Shown one piece after another: positions 3,238-22,354 of a stretch of 64,000 nucleotides of DNA (position 1 is its first letter; every line of letters begins with the position of its first letter). A program made the translations under genes and the position numbers. The stretch covers positions 640,001-704,000 of the forward strand of contig AL929603.2 in the NCBI GenBank assembly GCA_000002445.1, read 5' to 3'. The stretch comes from Trypanosoma brucei. Taxonomy: Eukaryota. The notes beneath the pieces are model-generated. The model saw nothing but the letters and a program-made list of their open reading frames with translations, searched no databases and was not told the origin of the DNA.

Positions 3238-5276
3238 CGTCAGCTTTTATGACCAATGCTTAGCTAACATTCACGAGCCACACACAAAACAATACGAAAA
3301 ACAAAGAGGTGAGAAGATATGTTGAGGAATCAAATAATAAAAGAAACGCACACACGAACCACAGGGCACCAACGTTTCAACAACACCGTGCCTCAGCATA
3401 ACTATGGCACACCAAAACCTCGCACACACAAATACACAAACACGTACTTGCGCATCGGGACATCAACCAACTCTGCGAAGTTAACATTAGAGTCGATTTC
3501 CACAGCCCCTTCCTGTCTCCAGAGGGTCCTTACAGCAACCATGATTAAACGACAAAGCGTCCCTCCACAGATATAGGGAAAATTAGGTAAATATCTGCAG
3601 TAGTCCATTTATAGCACGTTCATTCTTCACATGTCAGTTAGTGGGGGAAAGGTAACATGTACGTGACGGCCGGTCCTATTATCAAGAAGTAATAGAAAAG
3701 GCACTACATACGCGTAGCCACACAACTCATGATGTGAGGATATGCAACAACACTATGATTAGCAAAAATGATACAGGCATTCGCGAACTGACTCTTATGC
3801 CACGAAACGCCCATACACACCGAAACTGCAGGAGACATTCTGTTGCTGCTAGCCCCACGGTGGATGATGGGCCATCTCACACTCCCACAACTGTGCCTTA
3901 ATGTACAACACGGAAAGTACAGCAAGAAGACGCAGCGGCCACCAACTCTTTCGCAACGTTGCGTAACCACGTTGATATCCTCTCGGATCAGCAGAAAACT
4001 TTCGCCCGCTGATTGCCCGACCTACACCTCAACATTGTTATCGGCGGAAGGAAGCACCACCGAGAATCTCAAATATAATCACCGTGGTCCCACCACCACT
4101 TTCAGCGCTACAGCTTCTAATCCCATCATCTTTCCCAATTAATATCCCCCTTACTCAAATATGCATCCCCCTGGGGCATGCCATCGTAATAGATAATATA
4201 AACCTTACCCCTCCACATCAGAAATGGAGGCATCATCCAAGTTATATCCCATGTTACAACCCACCCTCCTCATCCTCACAGGACATATCGTTTGTTATCC
4301 AACCAGCAAGAGCGCAATATTCTCTCATGTCCCCCTTTTGTTTCTGGTCAGTCCAACAGTTGCAAAACTAACAAATTTCGACCCCGTATTCTTGTGGTCG
4401 AGGAATGGAACAAAGCATATGCAACGCTCACTGAAAGCGGCATGACGCCACACTAGAGAAACTATACCAGCATCGATAGTAGTCAAACACTGGGTGGGAT
4501 AATAACAGCCAACATGTGCATCCAAATAACCCTTTTTCCTCCTATGCAAGCCTAAATCAGCCAACAGAAAACAAGAGGCAGCGCAATGATAACAAAGGAA
4601 GGTTAGGGGGCACCACCTGTACATAACGAGAGCAGCAGCAAGCAACGGTAAAGGAAGGAGGTTGTGATGCTGCCAAATAGTTGGGAGCACTCAACAGCAG
4701 AAAATAAAACAAGAAAAGGTAAACAAAATGAAACGGTAAGAAAATGAAGAAAATAATAAGTAAGGTGCTCTGGAAGAAAATAAATATAATATGTAGAGTA
4801 CAACATTATGACTAAAGAACGAAACTACGAGAAAATAAAACACCATTGACATGGAGGAAAGTTAGACATCAAAAGAAAAGCACCAGCGGCCACACAGTGC
4901 GAGCACACGGGTAAGCTGAGTTTGCGTCTATTTGCACAATACGTGCTTTGACTTCCAAAGACGGACACAAGTGCGCGCTGATTTCATGAGTGAGGAACGA
5001 AGTGGTGTTGCAGATTTATAACAAAAGTCACGGAGGAGAAATAATAGGGTGGTAATATAAAAAAATAAAAGGGTAAGTTACGGCACCAAGAGTGACTTTT
5101 CACAATTTCTCGGGAAGGATAAATTAAAAGAACAATGCTCCGTACAACAATGTTGGAGTGCTGATGCAACAAAAACAACATATTCATGCGTTTGTTAAGA
5201 GAGAAAAGTAATAAGAATTCATTTTCAATATTATTGCACGGCCCACCTGACATTAGTGCCAACGATACGAGCCGCG

Positions 5277-7235: not shown

Positions 7236-9279
7236 CGTCAGCTTTTATGACCAATGCTTAGCTAACATTCACGAGCCACACACAAAACAATACGAAAAAC
7301 AAAGAGGTGAGAAGATATGTTGAGGAATCAAATAATAAAAGAAACGCACACACGAACCACAGGGCACCAACGTTTCAACAACACCGTGCCTCAGCATAAC
7401 TATGGCACACCAAAACCTCGCACACACAAATACACAAACACGTACTTGCGCATCGGGACATCAACCAACTCTGCGAAGTTAACATTAGAGTCGATTTCCA
7501 CAGCCCCTTCCTGTCTCCAGAGGGTCCTTACAGCAACCATGATTAAACGACAAAGCGTCCCTCCACAGATATAGGGAAAATTAGGTAAATATCTGCAGTA
7601 GTCCATTTATAGCACGTTCATTCTTCACATGTCAGTTAGTGGGGGAAAGGTAACATGTACGTGACGGCCGGTCCTATTATCAAGAAGTAATAGAAAAGGC
7701 ACTACATACGCGTAGCCACACAACTCATGATGTGAGGATATGCAACAACACTATGATTAGCAAAAATGATACAGGCATTCGCGAACTGACTCTTATGCCA
7801 CGAAACGCCCATACACACCGAAACTGCAGGAGACATTCTGTTGCTGCTAGCCCCACGGTGGATGATGGGCCATCTCACACTCCCACAACTGTGCCTTAAT
7901 GTACAACACGGAAAGTACAGCAAGAAGACGCAGCGGCCACCAACTCTTTCGCAACGTTGCGTAACCACGTTGATATCCTCTCGGATCAGCAGAAAACTTT
8001 CGCCCGCTGATTGCCCGACCTACACCTCAACATTGTTATCGGCGGAAGGAAGCACCACCGAGAATCTCAAATATAATCACCGTGGTCCCACCACCACTTT
8101 CAGCGCTACAGCTTCTAATCCCATCATCTTTCCCAATTAATATCCCCCTTACTCAAATATGCATCCCCCTGGGGCATGCCATCGTAATAGATAATATAAA
8201 CCTTACCCCTCCACATCAGAAATGGAGGCATCATCCAAGTTATATCCCATGTTACAACCCACCCTCCTCATCCTCACAGGACATATCGTTTGTTATCCAA
8301 CCAGCAAGAGCGCAATATTCTCTCATGTCCCCCTTTTGTTTCTGGTCAGTCCAACAGTTGCAAAACTAACAAATTTCGACCCCGTATTCTTGTGGTCGAG
8401 GAATGGAACAAAGCATATGCAACGCTCACTGAAAGCGGCATGACGCCACACTAGAGAAACTATACCAGCATCGATAGTAGTCAAACACTGGGTGGGATAA
8501 TAACAGCCAACATGTGCATCCAAATAACCCTTTTTCCTCCTATGCAAGCCTAAATCAGCCAACAGAAAACAAGAGGCAGCGCAATGATAACAAAGGAAGG
8601 TTAGGGGGCACCACCTGTACATAACGAGAGCAGCAGCAAGCAACGGTAAAGGAAGGAGGTTGTGATGCTGCCAAATAGTTGGGAGCACTCAACAGCAGAA
8701 AATAAAACAAGAAAAGGTAAACAAAATGAAACGGTAAGAAAATGAAGAAAATAATAAGTAAGGTGCTCTGGAAGAAAATAAATATAATATGTAGAGTACA
8801 ACATTATGACTAAAGAACGAAACTACGAGAAAATAAAACACCATTGACATGGAGGAAAGTTAGACATCAAAAGAAAAGCACCAGCGGCCACACAGTGCGA
8901 GCACACGGGTAAGCTGAGTTTGCGTCTATTTGCACAATACGTGCCTTGACTTCCAAAGACGGACACAAGTGCGCGCTGATTTCATGAGTGAGGAACGAAG
9001 TGGTGTTGCAGATTTATAACAAAAGTCACAGAGGAGAAATAATAGGGTGGTAATATAAAAAAATAAAAGGGTAAGTTACGGCACCAAGAGTGACTTTTCA
9101 CAATTTCTCGGGAAGGATAAATTAAAAGAACAATGCCCCGTACAACAATGTTGGAGTGCTGATACAACAAAGGAAAAACAACATATTCATGCGTTTGTTA
9201 ATAGAGAAAAGTAATAAGAATTCATTTTCAATATTATTGCACGGCCCACCTGACATTAGTGCCAACGATACGAGCCGCG

Positions 9280-11238
9280 TCAGGACCTCTTGGGCGCGAT
9301 CCCGTTGCCCTCCGCATTGGGTGTCACATCGCTGTCCCCTTCACAGACAGTTTCTTTCCCCTCAGGGGAAACATCAGCCGCCACCTTCCTCACGGGTTTG
9401 CCGTCTCCATCCAACTCCTCGTCCATGCGAGCATCGGGGAGAAGAGTAAAGATGAGAGGGATCTGAATGCACGGTGCCACGAAGCCGGAAATGAGCACAA
9501 GCCACTTTACATTGGCGAAGTCACATGGCACCAGTGTTTTCACAGGCAGAGCATATTCCATTATAACTGACCCAAGGGAACTACCCACCGTGCCGCCGAA
9601 ATTGCTCGATGCAGCAAGAATAGCGTACACAGTACTCTCGCTTCCACGAGGACACAACCGTGAAAGAATAATGGTTAACGGCATCCAGTGCATCATCCCG
9701 ATCACAGGAGATATGACGACATCGCAGCAGAAGTAAATCAAGTAGTCACTGACGTATGGCCGGTTCCATCGCATCACTATAATGAAGTCGAAGATGTTGG
9801 AGACGATGAGGAACACCAGTGTCAAGAAGTAAGTCATCCGATAAGTCTTTTTTGAAAGGAAGTAATTGAACAGCACGACACCCAGAGCTGAAGTGACACT
9901 TCCAACTGTTCCACCAACAGTCTGCAGGAAAAAAAGACTGAAGTGAGGTCCACCCGGATTGCAATCGGGTCCGGTCAGGAAGAACGGGGTGACAGCACCA
10001 CCAAAAGACACCGTAGACGCATTGTGCAAGTAACTGAACAGATTCACCTTCGCGACCGCCCACGACAGCGCATAGAAATTGAAAGAGCAGTGCCCCACGG
10101 AAACGACAGCCGCGGCAATGAGTAAATGCAGCCTCGATCCAAACAAGGAGGTTATGGCAACACCAACAACAAAGAATGCTATTAGCACGCTGTATATTGT
10201 CTCACGCTTGTTGCGCTCAAGGACCTCTTCGTTCATCTGGAACACACCGCAGCAGCACTCACGAGGCTCCCTGAACACAAATGGCTTCACAGCTGCCTCA
10301 CCGCCGTCAGCGTTAGGCCCCGCCACCGGCTCGCTGTTTGTCACTTGGCGCTCCACCATCCCACCATTTACGTCAATTAGATCATTGTCATCAGCCACCG
10401 GAGGGGTGTCCTTAGCCTCTTTTAACTTCTGCTCGTGGAGCACATGGGCATCGATGTACCGCTCCTCACGGTTGGGCAGTTCACCAAACCAATTGAACAG
10501 GAAGAATGGTGCCACCAGCAGCTGGACAGCGCTACCTATCATGGGAGATATCTGCGGTATGCCAGCGTCACCCAAAGGACCAACAATAACGGAAACAAAG
10601 AGACCAGCCAGGATAATGAACCACCAAACCCAACTCACCAGAGCAGGCCCTGGACCAGGCACACGGCGCATCATCCGGCTGTATAGTCCCTGCGATAGAA
10701 TGTCCGTACATGCCCTGCTGAGCCCAGAGAAGAAGAGGAACACGGAAGCAATTGCTGCACTCGATGGCTGCGCTGGGAGCAGAGCAAAGCCAAGGGAGAA
10801 TGCGGGACCGACGAGATTCGCCACAAACATGTACCACCGTTTGGTATAACCGAAGAACGGGAATATGTCGCTGATAGCAGCCAAAAGAGGCTTCACAGAC
10901 CACCCCATGCCGGCGATGTTAGTTAGCCGCTGGTAGACAAGACCCTCAACACCGAAACGGTTCAAAAACATCGCAATAATGGATCCACCAACAAGTCCGT
11001 TGGCAAGACCCTTACACAAGAAATACGATAATCCAATGGAAAGCACGGGCTTAGGACCATAGCCCTCAGCTGCCTCCCCGAACAAGGGGATGTGCCGAAG
11101 ACACGGAACCTTGTTGAACAGAGCCCGTGCCTCGGGGTGCACAAACGTTGCCTCCTTAGATTCCTCACTGTGTAGCTCAGCGACGAGTACGGCATCACCA
11201 CCCCGCGCATCGAACGAACCATCTTCCTGTCGACCCAT
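9280..11238 (-). CDS. Pteridine / folate-biopterin transporter, 652 aa, copy 3 (the copy nearest the strand-switch region)
   Basis: It differs from copies 1 and 2 at a few residues (GLANGLVGG, DDNDLIDV, MMHWMPL, SNFGGTVG). The unique flank begins ~670 bp upstream of its ATG. Confidence 0.8.
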   Translation of the reverse strand: MGRQEDGSFDARGGDAVLVAELHSEESKEATFVHPEARALFNKVPCLRHIPLFGEAAEGYGPKPVLSIGLSYFLCKGLANGLVGGSIIAMFLNRFGVEGLVYQRLTNIAGMGWSVKPLLAAISDIFPFFGYTKRWYMFVANLVGPAFSLGFALLPAQPSSAAIASVFLFFSGLSRACTDILSQGLYSRMMRRVPGPGPALVSWVWWFIILAGLFVSVIVGPLGDAGIPQISPMIGSAVQLLVAPFFLFNWFGELPNREERYIDAHVLHEQKLKEAKDTPPVADDNDLIDVNGGMVERQVTNSEPVAGPNADGGEAAVKPFVFREPRECCCGVFQMNEEVLERNKRETIYSVLIAFFVVGVAITSLFGSRLHLLIAAAVVSVGHCSFNFYALSWAVAKVNLFSYLHNASTVSFGGAVTPFFLTGPDCNPGGPHFSLFFLQTVGGTVGSVTSALGVVLFNYFLSKKTYRMTYFLTLVFLIVSNIFDFIIVMRWNRPYVSDYLIYFCCDVVISPVIGMMHWMPLTIILSRLCPRGSESTVYAILAASSNFGGTVGSSLGSVIMEYALPVKTLVPCDFANVKWLVLISGFVAPCIQIPLIFTLLPDARMDEELDGDGKPVRKVAADVSPEGKETVCEGDSDVTPNAEGNGIAPKRS

Positions 11239-14200
11239 CGTCAGCTTTTATGACCAATGCTTAGCTAACATTCACGAGCCACACACAAAACAACACGAAA
11301 AACAAAGAGGTGAGAAGATATGTTGAGGAATCAAATAATAAAAGAAACGCACACACGAACCACAGGGCACCAACGTTTCAACAACACCGTGCCTCAGCAT
11401 AACTATGGCACACCAAAACCTCGCACACACAAATACACAAACACGTACTTGCGCATCGGGACATCAACCAACTCTGCGAAGTTAACATTAGAGTCGATTT
11501 CCACAGCCCCTTCCTGTCTCCAGAGGGTCCTTACAGCAACCATGACTAAACGACAAAGCGTCCCTCCACAGATATAGGGAAAATTAGGTAAATATCTGCA
11601 GTAGTCCATTTATAGCACGTTCATTCTTCACATGTCAGTTAGTGGGGGAAAGGTAACATGTACGTGACGGCCGGTCCTATTATCAAGAAGTAATAGAAAA
11701 GGCACTACATACGCGTAGCCACACAACTCATGATGTGAGGATATGCAACAACACTATGATTAGCAAAAATGATACAGGCATTCGCGAACTGACTCTTATG
11801 CCACGAAACGCCCATACACACCGAAACTGCAGGAGACATTCTGTTGCTGCTAGCCCCACGGTGGATGATGGGCCATCTCACACTCCCACAACTGTGCCTT
11901 GATGTACAACACAGTCTTGCCAGCTAATTTCATTGATCTTTATAGGGGATAGAGGACTGTTTTTCGGTATGAATACTAATGTTATGATATCTTCGAGTTT
12001 GTTATCTGAATAATCTATGATCTCATTTCCTGTTGCGGAATAGGAAAGTACCAACCAACGCCATAATGTACCTACGCATTACAAGAATTTATTCCATGTT
12101 TAACTTCAGTGTCGTTCTCGGGCGCACTTAAGCATTCTTGCCGTTGCCGAGTATTCGCCAAATGTAATGTGTTTGAAGTGCCTTCTCTCCCCCCTCTTAA
12201 GCTCCTTACTAGTACATGTTTTGTGGCTTTGACTGTGATGTGATTCATGGGGGGCTGTTCTTCAATTCTGTTCAGTTTCTGGTGGCATGCAGGTGTTTTT
12301 CCAGGTATGTATTGCTTATCACCTCAGTTGCTCCTACCAATGGAACGCAAATGTGCGTTGCCTTTCAGTGTTATAGATGTGTCTGTCAGATTGCATGACA
12401 CGTATGTGCTACTTTATGAACATCTCCTTTTGAAATCCGTTGGCTCCAGCACCGCTATCACCACGTCTCTTTGTAAAATGCATCATGTAGGCTCCATCCA
12501 CATGACCTCCATTGTTCACTTCCCCACCACCACCCAACCCCCTCCCTTCACCTTTGGATGTCACCGTCCCCTATTGGTTAATGGATGCATCCGTCAGTAG
12601 TGGTTTTGTGACTGCCAGAGTTGGGGTGGTTTGACGGGGGTACTCTTCATTGCATCAATCCACTTTCAGCCAACCATCGATTTGTGAGGAGGTGATTCCG
12701 CTGGATCTTTGTCCTTTCATGCACTGCGCTGAAGTTGTGAGAACTGCTGAAGCATCATCCTCAAAAAAGAAGTGGCATGTAAAAGCTGATCCCGATCGCG
12801 CACCTGCGCTGCAGATCTCGACCGACGTGAAGCTACCTAATTCTTTCACCGTGGGCCTTCCAAGGGGTGTCGATCCACTGAGCGTTCCTGCCTTTTTTTT
12901 TTCTTCCACTCAAAGGAACTGGACCTCTTGTGGTTAAACAGCTCCAGGAGAAGTCACAGCCCTTTATCAGTGTCGTTTTATTCCACCACCCCCCCCCTCC
13001 CTCCCCTGCTGCTGCGCCCTGTCGCACATCTTCCTGCTACAGTATTTACCCCCACTGCTACCCACTCTTTTTTTTTCAGCCTGTCCAAAAAGCCGTCGTG
13101 AGTCCAAACGCGTATTTTTAGCTAAGTCGGTAATGTACGCCACGTTTTCAGCGCCCCAGAGTTGTCTGCCAGTCCTCTCTATTGCGTGCGAAATGTCTGG
13201 ACCGTATTGACAGTACAGCGGGAGCTGAGAGATCTCCACAGACCACCCCGTCTCCGTCCGATATCGAAAGTCCGTGTATGTACCACCCGGCAAACCCACC
13301 TAGAAAAAAAAAAAGAAGGCCCGCAAACAAAAGATGGTAACTACCTCGTCATGCAGCGCAAATTGCGCCCCGGCGAAACAGTCTCCTCGTAGTCCTCCTG
13401 GCATATTTTTTTTCTGTTTGGGTAATGAACAGCCTTCTTCGTAGCAACCTTTTTTCCTCACGCTATTGTAAAAGGAGCTAATGGTAAAAGAAAACTACCC
13501 ATTATGCAGCGGTTGAGGCCGATACTTCCGTAACCACCCGCGTCGTTTCCTTTCGCATTTCATCCGCTTCGGAATTCGTGAACAGGGCTCCTGTCCCTAA
13601 CTCCAGCCCACTCAAGTGACAATATGTTAACGTCCCCTTGTTGCGGTACCATTCGCTACAGCTCCTCTTGAGCAGCTATCTCTCACGATGAGTGCTTCGA
13701 AGAATGCCGCTGCTGCTCTGAAGAGACGGCCCTGTCTGATCACATGTTACTTCCCAGGATTCCCCATAAAGTAGTTAATTCTTCTTTCCCTCTCTAGAGG
13801 AGCGTCTCCAACAAAAACGCCTCATTTAACAGATCGAACTAAGCCCTTAGTTGTTTGTGTCTCGGTGGGGGAACTCTATTAGGTCCTTATGTTTTTCTAG
13901 GGAACTAATTTCGATAATTTTTCGGAGTGCTCCCCAACCGATGTTGATTCTTTCCCTCACCCGATGTTGGCAAGCCAATTTTTTTCTTTCCAAACGGCGT
14001 TATCCCGCCCCATTGGCCACCCCCAACCCACACCAGCTACGGTACAATGTACTCTTTTCCGTTGTCAGAGTTTTGCCTATAAGTTTGAGTTACCACCTCT
14101 CTACAGGACATGCTTGTCCCCATCGATTGATGTTTCCGCCTAAAGACCTGCAAGAAACATCTATCCCGGTGTTCTACGTGGATCCAGTAACGCTAACAGG

Positions 14201-15599
14201 GTCACTGTGTTATGAACTGAACCGTTTTCAGTCAGTTACAGGGCTATAACGAATAAGGGAGCATTCCCCCGCCTATATCCCTAAGTTGTGCTTCCCAGTA
14301 AATCTACCGAGTTGCTTCGTTGCGAGTATTCTTTGTTTCCAAGCTTACTGTGCTCACATCGTCTTCTTCTTTGTTTTTATGATTAGCCTTTCAAAGCCCA
14401 GGAAGCTATGGACAGGACGTGACTTAAGGTCGGAACTGGAATCACCTCGAACACAGACCTTTGAAGGGGCAAGAGCCTGTAGTGGTCCGAATAACATCTA
14501 TCCATGACCTGTAGTGCTTTGTCTTAACTTTTGAGAGTTCGCTTCCCCAGACATAAACACTTTTTTTGGATTAGATTTCTTTTTAAACTGTTTCATGTCC
14601 GACCTCCGGATGTTTCCACTCGTGCTTCGCCCTCGGGTGCTGAATCCCAATATTTCCCTTTCCCCGGGTCTCAAAGTTTCTGGGGCAGGTAGTTGGTTTC
14701 CCTCTTTGTCACTTGGTCCTTCGGACCACTCGAGTAGCATGTTGATCTGTTACGCACAGCGCAGGAGCATCGGTAACACCGTGCAGTGCTCGAAGGAAGT
14801 TGCGAATTTTTCTTTTTATATTCGCTTTTTGAATTGCCTGGTGACTGGAGTCATCTTCCTTTACTTGGACCCCATACTGCTATTTCCAAATTCTCAATTC
14901 CCTGTCCGTGGGCTTGCCCTCGCCACCTACATGGCTCAGAAGTACTCATGCAGCGTGCCTTCCAGTCAAGCATGTTCTTACAGGAAACATCCTCTGGCCA
15001 AGTTGCTCTTCTCCATAGCAGAGAAGTGTGGCACGTTTTTCCCAGTTCAAATTCCCCCTTGATAGATGATGAAAACACCACACTACAGGGCGCCAGCGGT
15101 TTTTCGGATGACATTGTTAGTATGTACCCCATCGTCCCTTCACATGAGTGGATACTTTCCTCTCGCCCTGAAACCACTTTCAATCAGTTTTTCATACGCG
15201 CACACACACCAAAACCATACCTGCCGAAGACGTCGACGAGAGGCAGGGCCGCGTCGGTTTGGCAGCTGGTGCTGGGGCGGACCTGGCATCTTGGATAGCG
15301 GGACAGTCTCGCCACGGTGCGGATCGTCAGTTTTGTTGATCTTCCAGTTGTGTTTACAAAGTGGGGGTCGCACCCGCAGTTCGTCCACGAAAGACACAGC
15401 CCTAGTCGGAAAACTCGGAAACCGTGTCCGTTTCACCTTCGCTTCTTAGAGTCATTGCACAAGCCGGGCGACGAGTCGGTAAGTTACAGTTTTCGAGCAT
15501 TTGCCCTTGCGCAACCTGGTTTGATGGGGAGGTTTCATTTCCTCTCTCTTTTTTTTTTCTTTATTTGGAAGGAGGAGGATTATGTGCGAACGTGAGCCC

Positions 15600-15900
15600 A
15601 CGTATGCTCGCCTCCCGTTATGGCCCGTCAACGAGGCGAAAAATGGTCGGCGTGTCAACCGTTTTGCATTGCAGGCGCCCGCGCGCGAGTCTCCGCTGTA
15701 GTTGTTGTTATTGTTTTTGCAGAGTTCTACTCGCGCCGTCGTGAGAGTCAGACACCCGCGGCCGTAGCCGCAAGCCGCGACACAAGACACTTTTCGGTCG
15801 CAAAAGTACCGCCGCGCGGGGCAACATGGCGCGAAAAGGCGGAGCCAAGAAATCATGGAGGGTGGCTGCTGCTTAAGCGGCCGCGGTGACTGAAAGGGGT
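15600..15900. other. CpG-rich, palindrome-rich island inside the strand-switch region. It may be a structured ncRNA or another cis element.
   Basis: There is a local run of CG-rich palindromes: gcgcgcgagt...actcgcgccg (an 8-bp stem), cgcggccgtagccgcaagccgcg, gccgcgcgggg...cgcgaaaaggcgg and gcggccgcgg. This contrasts with the AT/pyrimidine-rich intergenic DNA elsewhere in the window. Confidence 0.3.
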
Positions 15901-16523
15901 GTGGTGCAACCGCGCAAATTCGGGGACTAACACCGGGGGTACTCTTGAAGCAAGCTGTTCACCACGGGCAACAACTTGAAGCACGAGTACTCGGACATGA
16001 CGTTGCATGCCGCTGAGCGGAAAGCGTGTGAGTGCCCATTTCACTGTTACCCTTTACCCGGGTATTCTTTCGCGAAGGCTCAAGCCTGCAAACGGTTGCT
16101 GCTTTATCAGCAACCTTGGAGAACCTGAAGGGAAGCTACAGTATGTACTTTGGTGCCGTCATGTGTGCCGCTGATGTTATCCTTCTACTCTCGGTATTTT
16201 GATTGGAGCAGCAGCAGTGAGCCCACATGCGCTAGTTACACGCACATGGAATTAATATGAGCTTACTAAAATAAGTGAGGTGCCCCATCTGCTAACATGT
16301 AAGGGAAATGGGTTTGCACGGACCCCTTATCCCATTCCAGTAGTAGGGGTTAAACCACACGTGTGTGCAGGAACCCGTAACTGCGTTTCCTTTGATAATG
16401 ACCCTATAAAAAGGAATAAGAAGATGGTTTAATGAGTCTAAACTCCTAAATCTGTGTGGGGAAGTGAGCGAATGATGTTAAATTGATACCCGCCTATGAA
16501 CCTGAGCTATCTCGTTGAACTGA

Positions 16524-16564
16524 ATCTCTCCTTTCTGGCATCTGTCTCTGCATCTTGTCATTAG
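16524..16564 (+). promoter_or_regulatory. Polypyrimidine tract plus AG, a putative trans-splice acceptor for the ORF at 16593
   Basis: The sequence tctctcctttctggcatctgtctctgcatcttgtcattAG lies 29 nt upstream of the ATG. Confidence 0.45.
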
Positions 16565-16592
16565 CGCTGTTGGAAACCCCCATACATCAACA

Positions 16593-17333
16593 ATGAAACA
16601 TGTTTCTGAAATGTTCATCCCTGGCATGACATTATCGCACCTTGTTTCTCCCTTGCTCAGCATGCCAACTGCCACGAATCGTTTCTACGCACTTTACGGC
16701 CATTATAGCGTGCGTGAGGGGGATAGTGATGCAACAGAAAGCTCATTGATAGTTGAGGCCGTAGTGAGAGTCGTGTTACCCCTACATGCAGCGCCGCCAG
16801 AGGAGACAAAATTTATAGGTTTTGCTTCCGTGAAAAAGTCCAGTCCACACAAACTCTCATATGAAGAGACAAGGTTGCTTCGAGGGGATACTGAACCCGC
16901 AGAGTCATTCTTGCAAAAAAGTGATCGGTCCTACCCAATGTTGCTGCTTTTAGTGACAACACCTCTCGAGGTCCCTGTAGCAAAGAGTACAAAAAAGGTG
17001 GAATACAGTGTCTTTGAGTGCAAAACAGGCTCAGCGGACTTTTCTGAAAAAGCGATACCCCTTAAGGTAGATAACATGGTCGACTCTTTTTCCGCGTTTG
17101 TCCGGCTCAGCAATTTGGGGAGTCATGCTCTGGTTCGCAAGCAGTCCTCACCACCTACGCAGAGTTCACCCTCAGCGAACGAACTCAGTTTTCAATCCTC
17201 CATTAGCCAGTTAGAAGTGGCGAGTGCTAAAAGGCAGACGCTTCTAAAGCGTTTGGCCGAAGTGGAACGACTCCTTGAGCGTAAACAAACGGGGATGCTG
17301 AGAGCAGATGAACAGAAGCCCAACCGTATTTGA
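16593..17333 (+). CDS. Hypothetical protein, 246 aa, with a C-terminal coiled-coil segment. It may be the first gene of the rightward polycistron.
   Basis: An ORF with an upstream pyrimidine tract plus AG, non-repetitive composition and a C-terminal heptad-like segment (QLEVASAKRQTLLKRLAEVERLLERKQ). I recognise no family. Confidence 0.4.
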   Translation: MKHVSEMFIPGMTLSHLVSPLLSMPTATNRFYALYGHYSVREGDSDATESSLIVEAVVRVVLPLHAAPPEETKFIGFASVKKSSPHKLSYEETRLLRGDTEPAESFLQKSDRSYPMLLLLVTTPLEVPVAKSTKKVEYSVFECKTGSADFSEKAIPLKVDNMVDSFSAFVRLSNLGSHALVRKQSSPPTQSSPSANELSFQSSISQLEVASAKRQTLLKRLAEVERLLERKQTGMLRADEQKPNRI

Positions 17334-17657
17334 GCAAGCATCCCTTGGTGGGTTTTATTTCGTCCGTCACACTGCTGAGCACTGACTTGCACCGTAATTG
17401 TATGTATATTTGTGATCGGAAGTTTTTGTTGTTTTCTTTTTTTTTTTTGCGGAGATTATGAAAGGAGGTTGTAAGGTATCCAACCAATATTTCTTTTATT
17501 GTGAGGGGTTTTGGAGTATATCTTGTTGCTGCTAATGCTAACAGAAAGATTATAATGTCTTCGCAATGCGTAATGGCCTGTGGAACACGTGAGCCGAGTC
17601 ACACGCTTTACTTTTAGCGGCTATTACCATTGGTGAGAGGTCGATGACTACACCCAA

Positions 17658-17659
<2 letters not shown>

Positions 17660-17689
<30 letters not shown>
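17660..17689. repeat. (TA)15 microsatellite
   Basis: A direct read of atatatat... Confidence 0.95.
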
Positions 17690-17691
<2 letters not shown>

Positions 17692-18814
17692 CGTAAGTCT
17701 ACCCTGCTACACCGTATGTCCTGTATGTGTTTGATTTAACAGTTAAAGTTAGCTTTTCCTGACAAGTTGTGCGCACTGGCAACAGCCACATATTCATAAC
17801 GCTTTCGAGTGTGAGGGTGTGATGTTTGGGATGAGCTTCTGATTATGTTCCTATGTAGGAGGGGGCATAAGGATGTGGTGCCTTACCTGCGCGTCCAATA
17901 TTGCCGTGGCATAGTCAAGTAGTACTTTCTTTTAGAGGTGGTTCCGCGTCACGCATGAATTTGGCAGGGCATTGTCTCCGCATTCCCTTCGTCAGCGTCT
18001 CAGATAAGCATTTCAGATTTGTATTTCCTGTGGAATACCACCACCGATGAAGAACATGTCCGAATTGCTATCCAGTCTGTTGTGTTGGCCGCATCACAGC
18101 ATTCGCAGTGTATGACGTTGGAATGCTTTTCGTAAGGAACTGGACGTAAGCCACCTGAACGTAGAACAGTGCACTTGCCTCAACCGGTTTTTTGGTAGTG
18201 GTGCCTCCGTACCCTGGCCACGCAAGAAAAGGAAAAGGCTCACGAACGTCACGTGGTTTTTGTAAAGGTACTGAAGAATAGGAGGCCACATCTAGGCATC
18301 TAAAGTGTCGTAACGTGATGGTCTTTGTCGGGTCGAGTTGGTGAGAAAGTTTGACTGGTGATTTTGGTTCCTTCGTTTTCCACAACGAATGGCATAGATT
18401 GTTTATTGTCGTGGGATATTGTGCCACTCTAACATCAGTCTAACACTGAAGCGTAAACGAAAAGATGGGCTTAAGCGGACTGGTGTGTGTGGTGTCAATT
18501 TAAGTACCGTGCATTCTAGATGGAAAGCTTTCCACCGTGTTTTTTTTTTTAACCACCAACATTAAAGCGGGAAATTATTTTCGTCGGCGTACTATATGTA
18601 CCGAGTCAAACTCAGCCACTTCATGTAGTCGTCCCCCCCCTTTGGTCTGTCACTCTGTTATGGTAACAAGAGGGGTGGCCGAAATAGGTGGTGTCTTCAC
18701 TGCCGTGAACGCAGATTGGAAGTGTTACATCAAAGTTTCCAAGGACTACTTCTGGAGCAAAAAAAAAAGAAGTTTCGCTAAATGACTACAGTATACATGC
18801 TGATATAAATACAT

Positions 18815-21800
18815 ATGCTTTTTGGGGGAAATGGTTCGCATAGCGAAATGCAATGCAGTGACGGGAAAACATGTGAATGTAGCCCTCGACTCACGAAAAA
18901 GTACACTTTTATTCCATTATGTTCAAGTCGTTTTACCATGTTGTTGTCCATCCCGGTAAGAAGTGGGTGCGAAGCAAACAGTTTAACGGTAACAAGGGAT
19001 AGAAAACATGGAACAAGTAATTGCGCTCCTCCATCAGTTGAGGTGTCACCCTGCGCATCTTCGTTTCTGGTAGGTGACGCCGCACAAATTGTTGTTTGCC
19101 TCCTGAAGTCACCGAGCGTGTACCAAATCTGTGGAACCGTTTTGTTCCGTCAACATCGAGTTGGCTCACTCGCGTGTTGCTTTGTGGAACCTGAGGGCCG
19201 GTGGGGCGACTTTGGTTGTTCAGCAGTGACAACTCTCACATCGAATGAATCTAAGAACATACACATCGGCGAGGGGAGCGATATAGTGTACTTTTCTTTT
19301 ATGTCCTCGACTGAGGTGATGGCAGTATCGTACGGGGCTTGCGTTGGGTACATGCAACTGAGCGCTGACAAACACATTATAAAAGGGAAGAGCATGCAAT
19401 TGGACGGCTTGTCAAACGTATCTTGTGCCTGTTTGGTCAATGAGCTGTCGTTATTGGTGGTACTGACCGAGAGGTATGTATGTGGAGTGGTGGATATTCG
19501 CAGCGGTTGTATTCTGGAGGTTGTATGCGACAGCATGCCGGTTAAATTAGGCATCCCGTCATCGTGCGTCCTGCTACAGCTAGGAGATAGTGGCACAATT
19601 GATATCATGGTGAACTTCCCCTCAAGTGTAGAACCACATATACTCACTTTGCGGAGAAAACAATGTGAACCCCCCTCCGCTGACGCGCAAAAGCGTGTCA
19701 AAGCCAAGCATAATTCTCACCTCAAGGATCTAACAGGTGGGCTGTGCACCAAGCGTTGCGAAGATTTTTCCCTTGTGGCATCCGTTGGGTGGGAAATGGT
19801 GAAGTTTCTAGTCATGCAAAAGGGGAAATTGCGGGGCCTCGCTAATTTTGAAAACGAAACTGGTACGCCCTTTTTCTCTGGATTTTGGGCCGGTGATCAT
19901 TTTGTTGCTATCCGTGCCGATGGTTTGGTTGTATTCCTGTCGGTTGAGTTGCACCAGGGGCACTTCGATAAGCTTGAGATTTCCACGTTGGGAAGCATGG
20001 ACCTCATATCTTGCAGCGCTGCACTCTTGTACGAACAGTCCGATCGCTTCTTTGTTTTAGCGGTGAAAAACATGGAGGCACTATGGAACAACGCATCTGA
20101 TGCAGTCTGCATATCGGATAGCAACAACGCAAGACGTATGCTCAAGTGTCATACCGCCCCTGTATGCCCGACGGGCACCGTATTGGTTGACACGGTGTTC
20201 TTTCGTGATGGAATTGCTCTGCTCACCGTCGAGTCTTCCGGAGACTGCTCAGCGACATTTTTAACTGCGTCGGGAGCCCCATCACTGCTATTGGCGAGGG
20301 AAAAAAATCCAGAAGATATTGCCAGTTGCCTGTTGTACGACCAAAGAGAAACAATTTTCGTCACGGGGCACCAAGACGGAACACTGCATGTTTGGATTAC
20401 GGTACAACTTAGACACATCGTTCATACAGGACACGCAGGGCCGGTGGACAAGGTAGTGTTACTACCCGAAGGCGGAAAACGGTGTAGTTACGGCTTCATA
20501 TCCGTCTGTACGCAACGTGGGAGCGTGGTAGTGCATCACGCCGAGACATTTGAATGTGTATGCGTGGTGCAGGCGCCAAGTGCCCCACTTACCAGTCTAC
20601 TGTGGGATCCGTCGAGTGAGTGCATGATTGCAATCAGTGGAACTCTCGGAAACCTTTGGCACGCACCCACACATTGTATTCGGTTCGCTTTTCACACTTC
20701 GTTGTGCACTGCTGAGGGCCTAAAACGACCGGATCTACTGCGGTATCCATACAGGAGTGAAGACGTGGAGGTAGATAAAATCTCCGTGTGTGGAAGAACT
20801 TATCTTTCCATCCGTGTAGATGTGGCGTCCCTTCTCGACGCACTGAGTCAGCGCGGTGCGGGTGAATTAAGACCAAGTAGCCGGATCGTGCTGTCTCTTT
20901 TATTTTCTCGACTCAGTCAAGTTATAAAGCAGTTAAGGGAGTTTGCTGGGTCTACGAATACCTCGAAGGATGGTCATGAGTTTTTTAGTCCAGTCAATGG
21001 GGTTCAGTCTGGCACGTATACATTAGCTACTTCCATTGCGTGCAAATTACTTAGCGGCTCGCGGGGATCCGCGGATCTTGAGAAGGTGATATACGGAAAG
21101 GAACTTTGTGACTCGCTTTTGAACTCAGGTTGTATTGCGGAGGTGCCGACACCCGAAGACATTATTATCCAAGCGTTTCCGCTTCTGTTAAAACTGACAG
21201 AAGTAGCACGAAAGGCAGTCCGTCAGTCCATCAGGGCAGCAATGGCTTTGCTTCCAACACAGAGGTTAAACGACCTGGTGAAAAATCTCCTCAACAGTGC
21301 CTCCAGCGACTCATCGATACGTCGTTGGTTTGGGGTGTCATATTCAACTTCAAACGTTGATGTGTGGTGCTATAGCCTGTTGATTCAGCTGACCATTGCT
21401 AGTGAGGCACCAGCAGCTGAATGTGCGGACGCAGTGTCTTCTGTGGTACAAAGCCTTCGTACGGAAACGCCGTGCTTTGCGAAGGTGCTCGTAGCCGAAG
21501 GCGAAACTCAACGCCTTCTATTTTTTTTACTCGTTCTTAGAGACTACTACGCGTACATGGCCGGAAACCTACTAACCGACTTACAACCCGTGGCTGACGC
21601 CGTGGCGACACTGGCATTCGAAGCAGATGGTAATGTTTCTGCGTCAGCAGTGAAAACCCTGCTAGTGATCACCATCACAGAAGGAAGACCTTTCATACAA
21701 GACTACCTAAATAGGTGGTATAGTACCAATGTCCACTGGAGACCCCGCCTACTTGGGTTCTTGGGAAGCCTAATTCAGGTGGCGCCTCTTCAGTCGTACA

Positions 21801-22354
21801 TTTCATTTTCAACAATGAGGGAACTGTTCCTACAGGCGTATGATCCACACAATCCCAGTAGGGTAGAGAGGGACGCGTGTGCAATGCCAGCGCTTCGTTT
21901 GATTGGTCTAGCGGTTACTTACCTTCCCAACGTTTCCTTTCAGCAGCAGCTGCAGTACCTAGCTGTAGGCAACCACGACGGTGTTGTACAGGTCATCGAT
22001 TTAAAAACAACCGGTATCATCGCCTCATTTGCCTCCCACACAGAAGCTATCCTTTGTGTCTCATATAGTAGCAACACGTCGAGCCATGACATCGCGGTTC
22101 TTGGCGAAAAAATGAATCAGGTAAAGGTGTGGCATGGAAGCCGCTCCACTGGTGTATTCGGTGCACTGTTTTCGGGCCCCACGATTGAATTTCGTCTCAG
22201 ATTCGTCGTTGATATACCACTACTCACGACATTCGATCCGGTGTCGTGTGACCTGCAGCTATTAGTTACCAAGTGCAAGCTGAAGTGGCTCTCGCCGCGA
22301 TGTGTTGAACTGTGCACACCAGTTCATGACAGATTGAGACTAACTGTTCCGTAA
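18815..22354 (+). CDS. Large WD-repeat-containing protein, 1179 aa (hypothetical)
   Basis: WD-like repeat signatures are present (GHQDGTLHVWI, GHAGPVDKVVLL, GNHDGVVQVIDLKTTG...SHTEAILCVSYS, VKVWHG). It is a long uninterrupted ORF, and a T-run pyrimidine tract lies at 18537-18552 upstream. Confidence 0.65.
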   Translation: MLFGGNGSHSEMQCSDGKTCECSPRLTKKYTFIPLCSSRFTMLLSIPVRSGCEANSLTVTRDRKHGTSNCAPPSVEVSPCASSFLVGDAAQIVVCLLKSPSVYQICGTVLFRQHRVGSLACCFVEPEGRWGDFGCSAVTTLTSNESKNIHIGEGSDIVYFSFMSSTEVMAVSYGACVGYMQLSADKHIIKGKSMQLDGLSNVSCACLVNELSLLVVLTERYVCGVVDIRSGCILEVVCDSMPVKLGIPSSCVLLQLGDSGTIDIMVNFPSSVEPHILTLRRKQCEPPSADAQKRVKAKHNSHLKDLTGGLCTKRCEDFSLVASVGWEMVKFLVMQKGKLRGLANFENETGTPFFSGFWAGDHFVAIRADGLVVFLSVELHQGHFDKLEISTLGSMDLISCSAALLYEQSDRFFVLAVKNMEALWNNASDAVCISDSNNARRMLKCHTAPVCPTGTVLVDTVFFRDGIALLTVESSGDCSATFLTASGAPSLLLAREKNPEDIASCLLYDQRETIFVTGHQDGTLHVWITVQLRHIVHTGHAGPVDKVVLLPEGGKRCSYGFISVCTQRGSVVVHHAETFECVCVVQAPSAPLTSLLWDPSSECMIAISGTLGNLWHAPTHCIRFAFHTSLCTAEGLKRPDLLRYPYRSEDVEVDKISVCGRTYLSIRVDVASLLDALSQRGAGELRPSSRIVLSLLFSRLSQVIKQLREFAGSTNTSKDGHEFFSPVNGVQSGTYTLATSIACKLLSGSRGSADLEKVIYGKELCDSLLNSGCIAEVPTPEDIIIQAFPLLLKLTEVARKAVRQSIRAAMALLPTQRLNDLVKNLLNSASSDSSIRRWFGVSYSTSNVDVWCYSLLIQLTIASEAPAAECADAVSSVVQSLRTETPCFAKVLVAEGETQRLLFFLLVLRDYYAYMAGNLLTDLQPVADAVATLAFEADGNVSASAVKTLLVITITEGRPFIQDYLNRWYSTNVHWRPRLLGFLGSLIQVAPLQSYISFSTMRELFLQAYDPHNPSRVERDACAMPALRLIGLAVTYLPNVSFQQQLQYLAVGNHDGVVQVIDLKTTGIIASFASHTEAILCVSYSSNTSSHDIAVLGEKMNQVKVWHGSRSTGVFGALFSGPTIEFRLRFVVDIPLLTTFDPVSCDLQLLVTKCKLKWLSPRCVELCTPVHDRLRLTVP

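What the first reader, a model, noticed from the sequence alone, without database searches (positions are those of the whole stretch)
15600..15900. A CpG-dense, palindrome-rich island inside the strand-switch region, which may be a small structured RNA or an initiation/origin element
This ~300-bp block is strikingly GC- and CpG-rich compared with the rest of the non-coding DNA. It contains several short inverted repeats capable of forming hairpins: gcgcgcgagt/actcgcgc about 40 nt apart, cgcggc/gccgcg, gccgcgcg/cgcg..gcgg and gcggccgcgg. Small Pol III genes (tRNA, snRNA, 7SL-like) often sit in such regions in T. brucei, and I could not match it by eye to a known RNA. It could also be a nucleosome-positioning, origin or promoter element.
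Basis: seen in the sequence. Interest (0 to 1): 0.5.

Follow-up and report, generated by a model that had tools for sequence, protein, structure and literature searches.

The report
CpG-rich head of a trypanosome polycistron
The CpG-dense block is real, but it is not a small structured RNA: it is the GC-rich start of a Trypanosoma brucei multi-gene transcription unit, already annotated as the first spliced transcript (Tb927.1.2950), and similar GC-rich blocks sit at the same place in three other trypanosome species.

Summary
The window is T. brucei TREU927 chromosome 1, 640,001-704,000. The composition claim holds. 15600-15900 is the most CpG-dense 300-nt window of the 64 kb: 37 CpG against 12.6 +/- 4.3 in other non-coding DNA. 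It is the peak of a roughly 0.9-kb GC-rich block (15200-16100).

The hairpin and small-RNA reading fails:
- No Rfam, tRNA or B-box match.
- Folding z-scores are +0.27 and -0.20.
- No compensatory base-pair changes.
- Divergence from T. b. gambiense (3.3%) is no lower than in the flanks.
- The palindromes follow from alternating C/G.

Published RNA-seq (Kolev 2010) lists this strand-switch region as a divergent Pol II start region. It maps a spliced-leader acceptor at 15572 and a poly(A) site at 16420. The island is therefore the 5' third of the first processed transcript of the + unit, Tb927.1.2950. Its 89-codon ORF is frameshifted in gambiense.

The block begins at the GC-skew switch. Blocks unrelated in sequence but alike in composition lie upstream of the same genes in T. 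vivax, T. melophagium and T. grayi, at the skew switch in the first two. They are absent where those genes are internal to a unit.

Best reading: a composition-defined, promoter-proximal mark. The entity is already known. The CpG-island-like conservation is a modest new lead.

The parts
15600..15900 (.). CpG/GpC peak, the finding as given. 37 CpG, GC 0.60.
   Evidence: Top CpG window of the 64 kb. CG and GC observed/expected 1.39, CC 0.83, GG 0.71.
15200..16100 (.). Whole GC/CpG-rich block. 82 CpG in 901 nt, GC 0.56. It is interrupted by a polypyrimidine tract.
   Evidence: 100-nt CpG bins. Kept at 82-85 CpG in four T. brucei-group genomes.
15100..15200 (.). Minimum of cumulative GC skew. To the left C>G on the + strand; to the right G>C. 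Inferred meeting point of the two divergent transcription units.
   Evidence: The same coincidence of skew minimum and CpG block occurs in T. vivax and T. melophagium.
15538..15562 (+). 25-nt polypyrimidine tract, the longest in the strand-switch region. It is the trans-splicing signal of the first + strand transcript.
   Evidence: Followed by AG at 15570-15571.
15572..15575 (+). Spliced-leader acceptor sites of Tb927.1.2950. 15572 has 14 reads and 15575 has 1 read.
   Evidence: Kolev et al. 2010 Table S4, sites 655572 and 655575 on Tb927_01_v4. Window coordinate = chromosome coordinate - 640,000, fixed by the Tb927.1.2980 ORF 658815-662354 = window 18815-22354.
15572..16420 (+). First trans-spliced, polyadenylated Pol II transcript of the + unit, about 850 nt. 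The island is its 5' third.
   Evidence: Acceptor site at 655572 and poly(A) site at 656420 (1 read), Kolev Tables S4 and S5. Listed as the first ORF of the unit Tb927.1.2950 -> Tb927.1.3320 in Table S14.
15620..15889 (+). Annotated 89-codon ORF Tb927.1.2950. Probably not a conserved protein-coding sequence.
   Evidence: ORF. A 7-bp indel in T. b. gambiense and in L002 changes the frame after about residue 52, giving 80 aa with a different C-terminus. Codon-usage score -4.5 to +2, against +7 to +34 in the BT1 gene and +14 to +21 in the core of the 246-aa gene. No Pfam family. No match in the syntenic loci of other species.
16565..17333 (+). Next gene, Tb927.1.2970 (246 aa, conserved hypothetical). 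Acceptor site at 16565, ORF 16593-17333.
   Evidence: Kolev Table S4, site 656565 with 69 reads. Orthologues in T. congolense, T. vivax, T. grayi and T. melophagium.
11405..13299 (-). Tb1.NT.32, a low-abundance novel transcript and the inferred first processed RNA of the - unit. Its start coincides with a predicted - strand acceptor site after a polypyrimidine tract (polypurine on + at 13302-13319).
   Evidence: Kolev Table S7 lists 653299 -> 651405 at 0.04 RNA per cell. The table labels it '+' although the coordinates descend, as they do for the neighbouring - strand transcripts. Tract and AG. The strand assignment is my inference.
9280..11264 (-). Tb927.1.2880, third copy of the BT1 (pteridine/folate transporter) array and first annotated gene of the - unit. 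Acceptor site at 11264.
   Evidence: Pfam BT1, E = 6.6e-116. Kolev Tables S4 and S14.

Best explanation
The island is the peak of a roughly 0.9-kb GC/CpG-rich block (15200-16100). It marks the head of the Pol II polycistronic unit Tb927.1.2950 -> Tb927.1.3320 on T. brucei chromosome 1.

Shown:
- The block lies in a divergent strand-switch region that is a catalogued Pol II start region.
- It starts where GC skew changes sign.
- It contains the polypyrimidine tract and AG used for the first spliced-leader addition (15572).
- The CpG peak is therefore transcribed as the 5' part of the first processed RNA, which ends at the poly(A) site at 16420.

Inferred: what is kept is base composition and position, not a sequence motif, an RNA fold or the short ORF. 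Blocks unrelated in sequence but alike in composition lie upstream of the orthologous genes in three other Trypanosoma species. In two of them they sit at the skew switch of a divergent strand-switch region. They are missing where the same genes are internal to a unit.

Most likely mechanism, also inferred: the block acts as DNA and chromatin rather than as RNA. It would be a CpG-island-like, promoter-proximal region that helps define where the broad, bidirectional Pol II initiation zone and its special chromatin (H2A.Z/H2B.V, acetylated H4) are set up. The Tb927.1.2950 RNA would be a by-product of the first trans-splicing event.
For: Identity of the locus:
- The 1179-aa protein is 100% identical to a T. 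brucei TREU927 protein on a 1,064,672-bp contig.
- Gene order is a BT1 array on the - strand, then + strand genes.
- The coordinate offset of 640,000 reproduces ATG 15620, the AG before 15572, and the AG before 16565.

Start region:
- Kolev 2010 Table S14 lists Tb927.1.2880->2820 (-) and Tb927.1.2950->3320 (+) as 'Divergent' units.
- Acceptor sites are at 655572 and 655575, and the poly(A) site at 656420.
- The ORFs Tb927.1.2890-2940 upstream give no detectable transcript.
- The first - strand transcript starts at 13299, so both initiation zones lie between 13.3 and 15.57 kb.
- The cumulative GC-skew minimum is at 15100-15200.

Composition: a z of about 5.7 against other non-coding windows.

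Positional conservation:
- T. melophagium 1500-2100: 32 CpG per 300 nt against a locus mean of 9.5, the top window of 19 kb.
- T. grayi 1-900: 38 against 16.3, the top window of 18 kb.
- T. vivax 4800-6400: 29 against 13.2, exceeded or equalled by 0.8% of outside windows, the highest of which lie in and beyond the peptidase M20 gene.
- The skew minimum falls on or at the edge of the block in T. vivax (4701-4900) and T. melophagium (1701-1800).
- Negative controls: in two distant kinetoplastid contigs the 246-aa orthologue follows other + strand genes, and no non-coding CpG block is present.

Not sequence, fold or protein:
- No blastn similarity between species.
- No shared 7-9-mers beyond shuffles.
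- No fold signal.
- The ORF is frameshifted.
Against: - I have no nucleotide-resolution start-site, Pol II or H2A.Z data for this locus. The placement of initiation at about 15.1-15.5 kb rests on skew and on the first acceptor sites.
- The block evolves at least as fast as its flanks: 3.3% TREU927 versus gambiense, against 2.6% in the rest of the strand-switch region. CpG sites diverge about twice as fast as other sites (5.4% against 2.6% within the island). Purifying selection on the sequence is therefore not visible.
- Positional conservation rests on one orthologous locus in four species. The T. grayi contig begins inside its block, so a strand switch there is unverified. The T. vivax - strand ORF has no Pfam support.
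- The island is not GT-rich on the sense strand (G+T 0.52), unlike the only promoter elements whose sequence I could read.
- A passive mutational origin would give the same picture.
Confidence: 0.6

Rival explanations
1. Same place, no function. The GC/CpG richness is a passive by-product of being at a transcription start zone. Open, R-loop-prone, recombination- or repair-prone chromatin could bias substitutions towards G and C, for example by GC-biased gene conversion. The composition would then itself do nothing.
For: The substitution rate in the block is not reduced, and CpG sites decay about twice as fast as other sites. There is no shared motif among species and no sequence similarity. 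The composition differs in detail between species: alternating CG/GC in T. brucei, GG-rich in T. melophagium.
Against: A block that loses CpG faster than its surroundings yet is present in four species needs a continuous input of G and C. No such bias has been shown here. The rest of the same strand-switch region (11913-15199), which is presumably also open chromatin, has CpG observed/expected 0.75.
Confidence: 0.3
2. The RNA or its product is the functional unit. Tb927.1.2950 would encode a small protein, or act as a long non-coding RNA, and the CpG richness would be incidental to that gene.
For: The transcript is trans-spliced and polyadenylated. The first 46 codons are identical in the four T. 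brucei-group genomes.
Against: The ORF is frameshifted after about residue 52 in T. b. gambiense and in L002. There is no codon-usage signal, no Pfam family and no homologue in the syntenic loci of three other species. Read support is low: 14 spliced-leader reads and 1 poly(A) read, against 69 spliced-leader reads for the neighbouring gene. There is no fold or covariation signal.
Confidence: 0.08
3. A small structured RNA gene transcribed by Pol III or processed from the precursor (tRNA-like, 7SL-like, snRNA or snoRNA).
For: Short inverted repeats are present. Inverted 6-8-mers are mildly enriched (P 0.02-0.08).
Against: No Rfam family at gathering scores, and only noise at E<=10, none of it inside 15600-15900. 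No tRNA. No B-box. Folding z-scores are +0.27 and -0.20. No compensatory change appears in 101 pairs and one pair is broken. Divergence is neutral-level, with a 7-bp indel inside the predicted structure. The orthologous blocks have no Rfam hit either.
Confidence: 0.02
4. A replication-origin or ORC1/CDC6 binding site. T. brucei ORC1/CDC6 sites and origins lie at the boundaries of transcription units, so the block could serve replication instead of, or as well as, transcription.
For: Tiengwe et al. 2012 report ORC1/CDC6 sites and origins at unit boundaries, including divergent strand-switch regions. The island is in such a boundary.
Against: About 80% of ORC1/CDC6 sites do not correspond to active early origins. 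Nothing in the sequence can be tested for origin function. The tight link to the skew switch and the first acceptor site points to transcription.
Confidence: 0.1
5. A decayed relic of a gene or of a retroelement such as ingi, RIME, DIRE or SIDER. These accumulate in strand-switch regions and carry a GC-rich 77-nt 5' hallmark.
For: T. melophagium and T. grayi have an extra 190/238-aa membrane-protein gene between the block and the 246-aa gene. It is missing in T. brucei and T. vivax.
Against: tblastn of that protein against the T. brucei strand-switch region and the T. vivax locus finds nothing. Where that gene is present it is CpG-poor and lies downstream of the block. Six-frame Pfam scans of about 14.3-16.3 kb find nothing at E<=1. 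The Pr77 5' sequence has no match in the strand-switch region. The region is single-copy within the window.
Confidence: 0.03

Closest known systems
T. brucei Pol II transcription start regions at divergent strand-switch regions (Siegel 2009; Kolev 2010; Wedel 2017)
   Same: This strand-switch region is itself on Kolev's list of divergent start regions. It has two diverging units, a first spliced-leader acceptor site just downstream, untranscribed 'unlikely' ORFs in between, and a strand-composition switch.
   Different: Published descriptions stress chromatin marks, GT-rich sense-strand elements and G-runs. A CpG/GC-rich block at the switch point is not part of the description I could read. 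Briggs et al. 2018 state that no CpG islands have been detailed in T. brucei.
GT-rich promoter elements (Wedel et al. 2017, EMBO J)
   Same: Position within a start region. GT-rich stretches do occur nearby: G+T is 0.58 on the + strand at 17350-18100, and 0.63 on the - strand at 11240-11640. The T. melophagium region shows an AC-rich then GT-rich mirror around its GC core.
   Different: The island itself has G+T of 0.52 and is made of alternating C/G. It lacks the GTGTG, T-run and G-run 10-mers of the synthetic promoters.
Vertebrate CpG-island promoters
   Same: A GC-rich, CpG-rich block of about 1 kb overlaps the start of transcription and the first transcribed segment. Initiation in T. brucei is broad and bidirectional, a parallel Kolev et al. 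drew explicitly. The block is conserved in position without sequence conservation.
   Different: The surrounding genome is not CpG-depleted (observed/expected 0.89 in the window, 0.84 in non-coding DNA). The island is therefore an enrichment above neutral, not an escape from methylation-driven decay. CpG and GpC are enriched equally. No methylation or CXXC-type reader is implied by anything tested here.
75-bp sequence-specific Pol II core promoters (Cordon-Obras et al. 2022, Cell Rep)
   Same: They are described by citing papers as two oppositely oriented, directional core promoters inside the 5-10 kb divergent strand-switch regions. This fits two separated initiation zones between 13.3 and 15.57 kb.
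   Different: The paper is not held, so I could not compare sequences. The CpG peak lies downstream of the first acceptor site, so it cannot be the core promoter itself unless initiation also occurs further upstream in the block.
GC-rich strand-switch domain at the T. cruzi centromere (Obado et al. 2005)
   Same: A GC-rich domain at a transcriptional strand switch in a trypanosome. I know it only from a title in a reference list.
   Different: That domain is 16 kb and marks a centromere. This block is 0.9 kb in an ordinary arm strand-switch region. From my own knowledge, T. brucei centromeres are AT-rich repeat arrays.

Membership tests
Small structured RNA / Pol III gene (tRNA, 7SL, snRNA, snoRNA) | Match to a curated covariance model or tRNA model | tested here: not met
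   Rfam gathering scan gives 0 hits in 64 kb. At E<=10 over 14500-17000 there are four noise hits, none inside 15600-15900. ARAGORN finds 0 genes.
Small structured RNA / Pol III gene (tRNA, 7SL, snRNA, snoRNA) | Fold more stable than composition-matched shuffles | tested here: not met
   z = +0.27 on the + strand and -0.20 on the - strand.
Small structured RNA / Pol III gene (tRNA, 7SL, snRNA, snoRNA) | Base pairs kept by compensatory changes; conservation above flanks | tested here: not met
   0 of 101 pairs are compensatory and 1 is broken, although only two haplotypes are available, so power is low. Divergence is 3.3% against 2.6% in the flanking strand-switch DNA, with a 7-bp indel.
Small structured RNA / Pol III gene (tRNA, 7SL, snRNA, snoRNA) | Internal Pol III promoter (B box GGTTCGANNCC) | tested here: not met
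   No match within 15600-15900 at <=1 mismatch. The window total of 9 is below the chance mean of 12.6.
T. brucei Pol II transcription start region at a divergent strand-switch region | Lies between two diverging polycistronic units | tested here: met
   BT1 genes on the - strand up to 11238, then + strand genes from 15620/16593 onwards.
T. brucei Pol II transcription start region at a divergent strand-switch region | Experimental evidence of initiation (5'-triphosphate RNA enrichment) | tested here: met
   Taken from the literature, not computed here. Both units are listed as 'Divergent' in Table S14 of Kolev et al. 2010. Positions of the triphosphate reads within the region are not given.
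T. brucei Pol II transcription start region at a divergent strand-switch region | First spliced-leader acceptor site of the unit immediately downstream | tested here: met
   Acceptor sites 15572 and 15575 follow a 25-nt polypyrimidine tract.
T. brucei Pol II transcription start region at a divergent strand-switch region | H2A.Z/H2B.V, H4K10ac and H3K4me3 enrichment | not testable with these tools
   No ChIP data are accessible here.
GT-rich promoter element (Wedel 2017) | G+T-rich sense strand built of GT, T-run and G-run 10-mers | tested here: not met
   G+T is 0.52 in the island and 0.53 in the block. GG observed/expected is 0.71. Compared with the published synthetic elements.
75-bp core promoter (Cordon-Obras 2022) | Sequence-specific elements of the 75-bp promoter | not tested
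   The paper is not held. Citing papers give no sequence.
CpG-island promoter (vertebrate sense) | Length >=200 bp, GC >=0.5, CpG observed/expected >=0.6 | tested here: met
   301 nt, GC 0.60, observed/expected 1.38. The criterion does not discriminate here, since the whole window has observed/expected 0.89.
CpG-island promoter (vertebrate sense) | Stands out from a CpG-depleted, methylated bulk genome | tested here: not met
   The bulk observed/expected is 0.89, and 0.84 in non-coding DNA. GpC is enriched as much as CpG.
CpG-island promoter (vertebrate sense) | Overlaps a broad, bidirectional transcription start | tested here: inconclusive
   The location at the skew switch and first acceptor site fits. 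Exact start sites at this locus are not available.
Protein-coding gene (Tb927.1.2950) | Reading frame conserved in close relatives; coding-type codon usage; homologues | tested here: not met
   Frameshift in T. b. gambiense. Codon-usage score is about 0. No Pfam family. No syntenic homologue.
Replication origin / ORC1-CDC6 site | ORC1/CDC6 occupancy and a marker-frequency peak | not testable with these tools
Trypanosomatid retroposon (Pr77 hallmark) | Pr77 5' sequence | tested here: not met
   The first 15 nt of Pr77 give 4 matches at 3 mismatches in the window, none in the strand-switch region, against 1.6 expected by chance. Only the 15-nt primer sequence was available to me.

The most novel reading that the evidence does not exclude
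Trypanosome polycistronic units may begin with CpG-island-like blocks. These would be about 0.5-1.5 kb of GC/CpG-rich DNA at the exact point where strand composition switches. They would be kept in position but not in sequence across Trypanosoma (salivarian T. brucei and T. vivax, stercorarian-type T. melophagium, and T. grayi). They would act through composition, by nucleosome or H2A.Z placement or by Pol II entry, as the long-sought determinant of where dispersed Pol II initiation zones form. The evidence here does not exclude this. It shows it for one orthologous locus in four species, with two negative controls.
Probability: 0.3. Interest if true: 0.65.

Novelty: already known. Interest (0 to 1): 0.33.

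Why it matters
What defines RNA polymerase II start regions in trypanosomes is a long-standing open question. The genes lack conventional promoters, and only GT-rich tracts and one 75-bp element have been reported.

This particular locus is already catalogued as a start region, and the island is already an annotated, low-level transcript. The finding as posed is therefore ordinary.

The by-product of the check is of some interest. A composition-defined GC/CpG block sits at the GC-skew switch, recurs upstream of the orthologous genes in three other Trypanosoma species, and is absent where those genes are internal to a unit. If this is general, it gives a simple sequence-based predictor of start regions. 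It also gives a direct experiment: replace the block with scrambled DNA, or with DNA of background composition.

Tried and rejected
- Rfam, at gathering thresholds and at E<=10, and ARAGORN found nothing relevant.
- RNA folding of both strands and RNAalifold gave no signal.
- A Pol III B-box search found nothing in the island.
- A Pr77 retroposon hallmark search found nothing in the strand-switch region.
- Six-frame Pfam scans of about 14.3-16.3 kb found nothing.
- A codon-usage scan found no coding signal in the island.
- tblastn of the extra T. melophagium/T. grayi membrane-protein gene against the T. brucei and T. vivax regions found no relic.
- blastn of the T. brucei strand-switch region against the other species' loci gave only chance matches.
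- A shared k-mer search among the four blocks found none beyond shuffles.
- A canonical G-quadruplex motif search found none in the island. Three lie on the - strand at 12522, 12989 and 14004.
- The search for homologous proteins with the whole 1179-aa protein returned only itself, probably because WD40 words swamped the candidates. With the DUF7048 region alone it returned nothing.
- The T. congolense proteins P0002 and P0006, and the TREU927 protein P0003, are not on record with contigs. The closest informative outgroup could not be fetched.
- Cordon-Obras et al. 2022 is not held.
- No paper in the library mentions Tb927.1.2950, Tb927.1.2970 or Tb927.1.2980 in its main text.
Full report
**Where the window is**

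The 1179-aa protein encoded at 18815-22354 is 100% identical to a T. brucei brucei TREU927 protein on a 1,064,672-bp contig. The 246-aa ORF at 16593-17333 is 99% identical to a T. b. gambiense protein and 54% identical to a T. congolense protein.

Three tandem BT1-family transporter genes lie on the - strand (1279-3237, 5277-7235, 9280-11238). All later genes lie on the + strand: a DUF7048/WD40 protein, a PPR protein, an M20 peptidase, an RNA ligase and others. Only its first 674 nt are repeated within the BT1 array. The rest is single-copy in the window.

**Observation check**

- 15600-15900 holds 37 CpG at GC 0.60 and CpG observed/expected 1.38. It is the highest of all 300-nt windows in the 64 kb (mean 16.9, sd 5.4).
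- Other purely non-coding windows average 12.6 +/- 4.3 with a maximum of 26. Coding windows reach at most 35.
- The enrichment extends from about 15200 to 16100, broken by a polypyrimidine tract.
Against dinucleotide-preserving shuffles the excess is marginal for 6-8-mers (P 0.023-0.081) and absent for 9-10-mers and for perfect palindromes.
- CpG and GpC are both 1.39-fold over-represented, while CC and GG are depleted. The island is made of alternating C/G, which is self-complementary by construction. That explains the palindromes.

**Is it a structured or Pol III RNA?**

No.

- Rfam gives no hit at gathering scores anywhere in the window. At E<=10 around the island there are four noise hits, none inside it.
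- ARAGORN finds no tRNA.
- There is no B-box in the island.
- Minimum free energies equal those of dinucleotide shuffles on both strands, z = +0.27 and -0.20.
- In an alignment with T. b. gambiense and a third T. brucei-group genome, none of 101 predicted pairs shows a compensatory change and one pair is broken. Only two haplotypes exist, so this test is weak.

**What published data say about this exact place**

Kolev et al. 2010 (PMC2936537) mapped splice-acceptor, poly(A) and 5'-triphosphate ends on TREU927. Their coordinates minus 640,000 equal window coordinates: the Tb927.1.2980 ORF 658815-662354 is window 18815-22354.

- Table S14 lists Tb927.1.2880->2820 (-) and Tb927.1.2950->3320 (+) as divergent Pol II units.
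- Tb927.1.2950 has acceptor sites at 655572 (14 reads) and 655575 (1 read), a 48-nt 5' UTR and a poly(A) site at 656420.
- In the window this is an AG at 15570-15571 following the 25-nt polypyrimidine tract 15538-15562, an ATG at 15620, a stop at 15889 and a transcript end at 16420. I had predicted that acceptor site from the sequence before finding the table.
- The flagged island is thus the 5' third of the first trans-spliced, polyadenylated RNA of the + unit. It already carries a gene identifier.
- The upstream ORFs Tb927.1.2890-2940 are 'hypothetical unlikely' with no detectable transcript.
- On the other side, the novel transcript Tb1.NT.32 runs 653299->651405. Its start coincides with a predicted - strand acceptor site after a polypyrimidine tract (polypurine on + at 13302-13319). 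I infer that it is the first processed - strand RNA, although the table labels it '+'.
- Both initiation zones must then lie between 13.3 and 15.57 kb.

**Is Tb927.1.2950 a real protein gene?**

Probably not.

- A 7-bp indel in T. b. gambiense and in a second genome shifts the frame after about residue 52, giving 80 aa with an unrelated C-terminus.
- The codon-usage log-odds score is about 0 in the island. It is +7 to +34 across the BT1 gene and +14 to +21 in the core of the 246-aa gene.
- There is no Pfam family.
- tblastn finds no counterpart in the syntenic loci of three other species.

**Conservation within the T. brucei group**

TREU927 and gambiense differ at 3.3% of sites in the island. 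The rest of the strand-switch region differs at 2.6% and the next intergenic region at 1.7%. Coding 300-nt bins show 1-4 changes. CpG sites diverge about twice as fast as other sites, both inside and outside the island. The island is nevertheless present in all four genomes, with 34-37 CpG. There is no sign of purifying selection on the sequence.

**Cross-species comparison**

Representatives of the DUF7048/WD40 protein led to syntenic loci in T. melophagium (L004), T. vivax (L005, L006) and T. grayi (L007). Species names come and the loci. In all of them the 246-aa orthologue lies just upstream of the WD40 gene.

| Species (locus) | Block | Best CpG per 300 nt | Locus mean | Rank in locus |
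|---|---|---|---|---|
| T. melophagium (L004) | 1500-2100 | 32 | 9.5 | top window of 19 kb |
| T. grayi (L007) | 1-900 | 38 | 16.3 | top window of 18 kb |
| T. vivax (L005) | 4800-6400 | 29 | 13.2 | reached by 0.8% of outside windows, the highest lying in and beyond the M20 peptidase gene |

- The cumulative GC-skew minimum falls on the block or its left edge in T. brucei (15100-15200), T. vivax (4701-4900) and T. melophagium (1701-1800).
- The compact T. melophagium region shows the pattern most clearly: AC-rich, then a GC core, then GT-rich.
- The blocks share no blastn similarity and no 7-9-mers beyond shuffles. They have no Rfam hit.
- As negative controls, two more distant kinetoplastid contigs (L008, L009) carry the 246-aa orthologue behind other + strand genes. 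Their intergenic DNA there is CpG-poor.
- The block therefore goes with the start of the unit, not with the neighbouring gene.
- Caveats: this is one locus. The T. grayi contig starts inside its block. The T. vivax - strand ORF is unverified.

**Mechanism**

Shown: the location, the transcription and processing, the composition, and the positional recurrence.

Inferred: the block acts as DNA and chromatin. It would be a CpG-island-like, promoter-proximal region that helps set the broad, bidirectional initiation zone. The Tb927.1.2950 RNA would be a by-product of the first trans-splicing event, as Kolev et al. argued for transcripts at start regions.

The main rival is that the composition is a passive consequence of start-zone biology, such as biased repair or gene conversion. 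The neutral-level divergence and the lack of any motif fit that equally well. The remaining rivals are less likely, for the reasons given in their entries: a small protein or lncRNA, a structured small RNA, a replication origin, or a gene or retroelement relic.

**Comparison with what is known**

- The locus is a member of the known class 'Pol II start region at a divergent strand-switch region'.
- It does not match the GT-rich promoter elements of Wedel 2017. Sense-strand G+T is 0.52 and GG is depleted.
- It resembles vertebrate CpG-island promoters in size, position and broad bidirectional initiation. It differs in that the surrounding genome is not CpG-depleted (0.84-0.89) and GpC is enriched equally.
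- Briggs et al. 2018 note that no CpG islands have been detailed in T. brucei.
- The 75-bp core promoter of Cordon-Obras 2022 could not be compared, because the paper is not held.

**Verdict**

The composition is real. The structured-RNA idea is rejected. The entity is an already annotated transcript inside an already catalogued start region. The positional recurrence of a composition-defined block at the skew switch is a modest new lead that needs a genome-wide test.

Noticed in passing
window 18815-18940: The annotated start of Tb927.1.2980 (DUF7048/WD40 protein, 1179 aa) is probably too far upstream. The main spliced-leader acceptor site (658928 = window 18928, 83 reads) lies inside the ORF. 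The next Met is residue 42 (18938). All orthologues align from residue 42 onwards.
   Followed up: partly
L004 2204-2776; L007 1051-1767: T. melophagium and T. grayi have an extra small predicted membrane-protein gene (190 and 238 aa, 56% identical, no Pfam family). It lies between the GC block and the 246-aa gene. tblastn finds no trace of it in the T. brucei or T. vivax loci, which suggests loss in the salivarian lineage or gain in the other lineage.
   Followed up: partly
window 11405-13299: Kolev's novel transcript Tb1.NT.32 is labelled '+' but is listed with descending coordinates, like its - strand neighbours NT.29-31. Its start matches a - strand polypyrimidine/AG acceptor signal at 13300-13319. 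The strand label looks like an error.
   Followed up: partly
window 12522-12546, 12989-13019, 14004-14029: Three canonical G-quadruplex motifs lie on the - strand (C-runs on +), all left of the GC-skew switch. They are on the G-rich sense side of the inferred - strand transcription. There are none in the CpG island.
   Followed up: no
window 12800-13100: This is the most divergent stretch between TREU927 and T. b. gambiense in the 8 kb compared, with 31 substitutions and 18 indel columns in 300 nt. It lies around long C/T tracts.
   Followed up: no
window 17350-18100: A GT-rich stretch on the + strand (G+T 0.58, with bins at +50 to +60 per 200 nt) lies between Tb927.1.2970 and Tb927.1.2980. 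It overlaps the novel transcript Tb1.NT.33 (17749-18828). It resembles the GT-rich start-region elements of Wedel 2017 more than the island does.
   Followed up: no
L004 1560-2150: The T. melophagium strand-switch region is very compact, about 1.3 kb between genes. It is nearly mirror-symmetric: an AC-rich arm, a GC/CpG core (GGCGGCGGCGGGCCGGCCGGGGG) and a GT/T-run arm. It would make a clean natural model of a bidirectional start region.
   Followed up: partly
window 1279-11913: The three BT1 transporter genes form 4.0-kb tandem units. Their upstream 674 nt are 99.6% identical between copies. Each spacer carries its own roughly 1.1-kb novel - strand transcript (Tb1.NT.29-31) in Kolev's data.
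   Followed up: no
tool behaviour: the search for homologous proteins returned only the query's own cluster for the full WD40 protein. It returned nothing at all for its DUF7048 region, not even the self-hit. HMMER against cluster representatives found orthologues at once.
   Followed up: no
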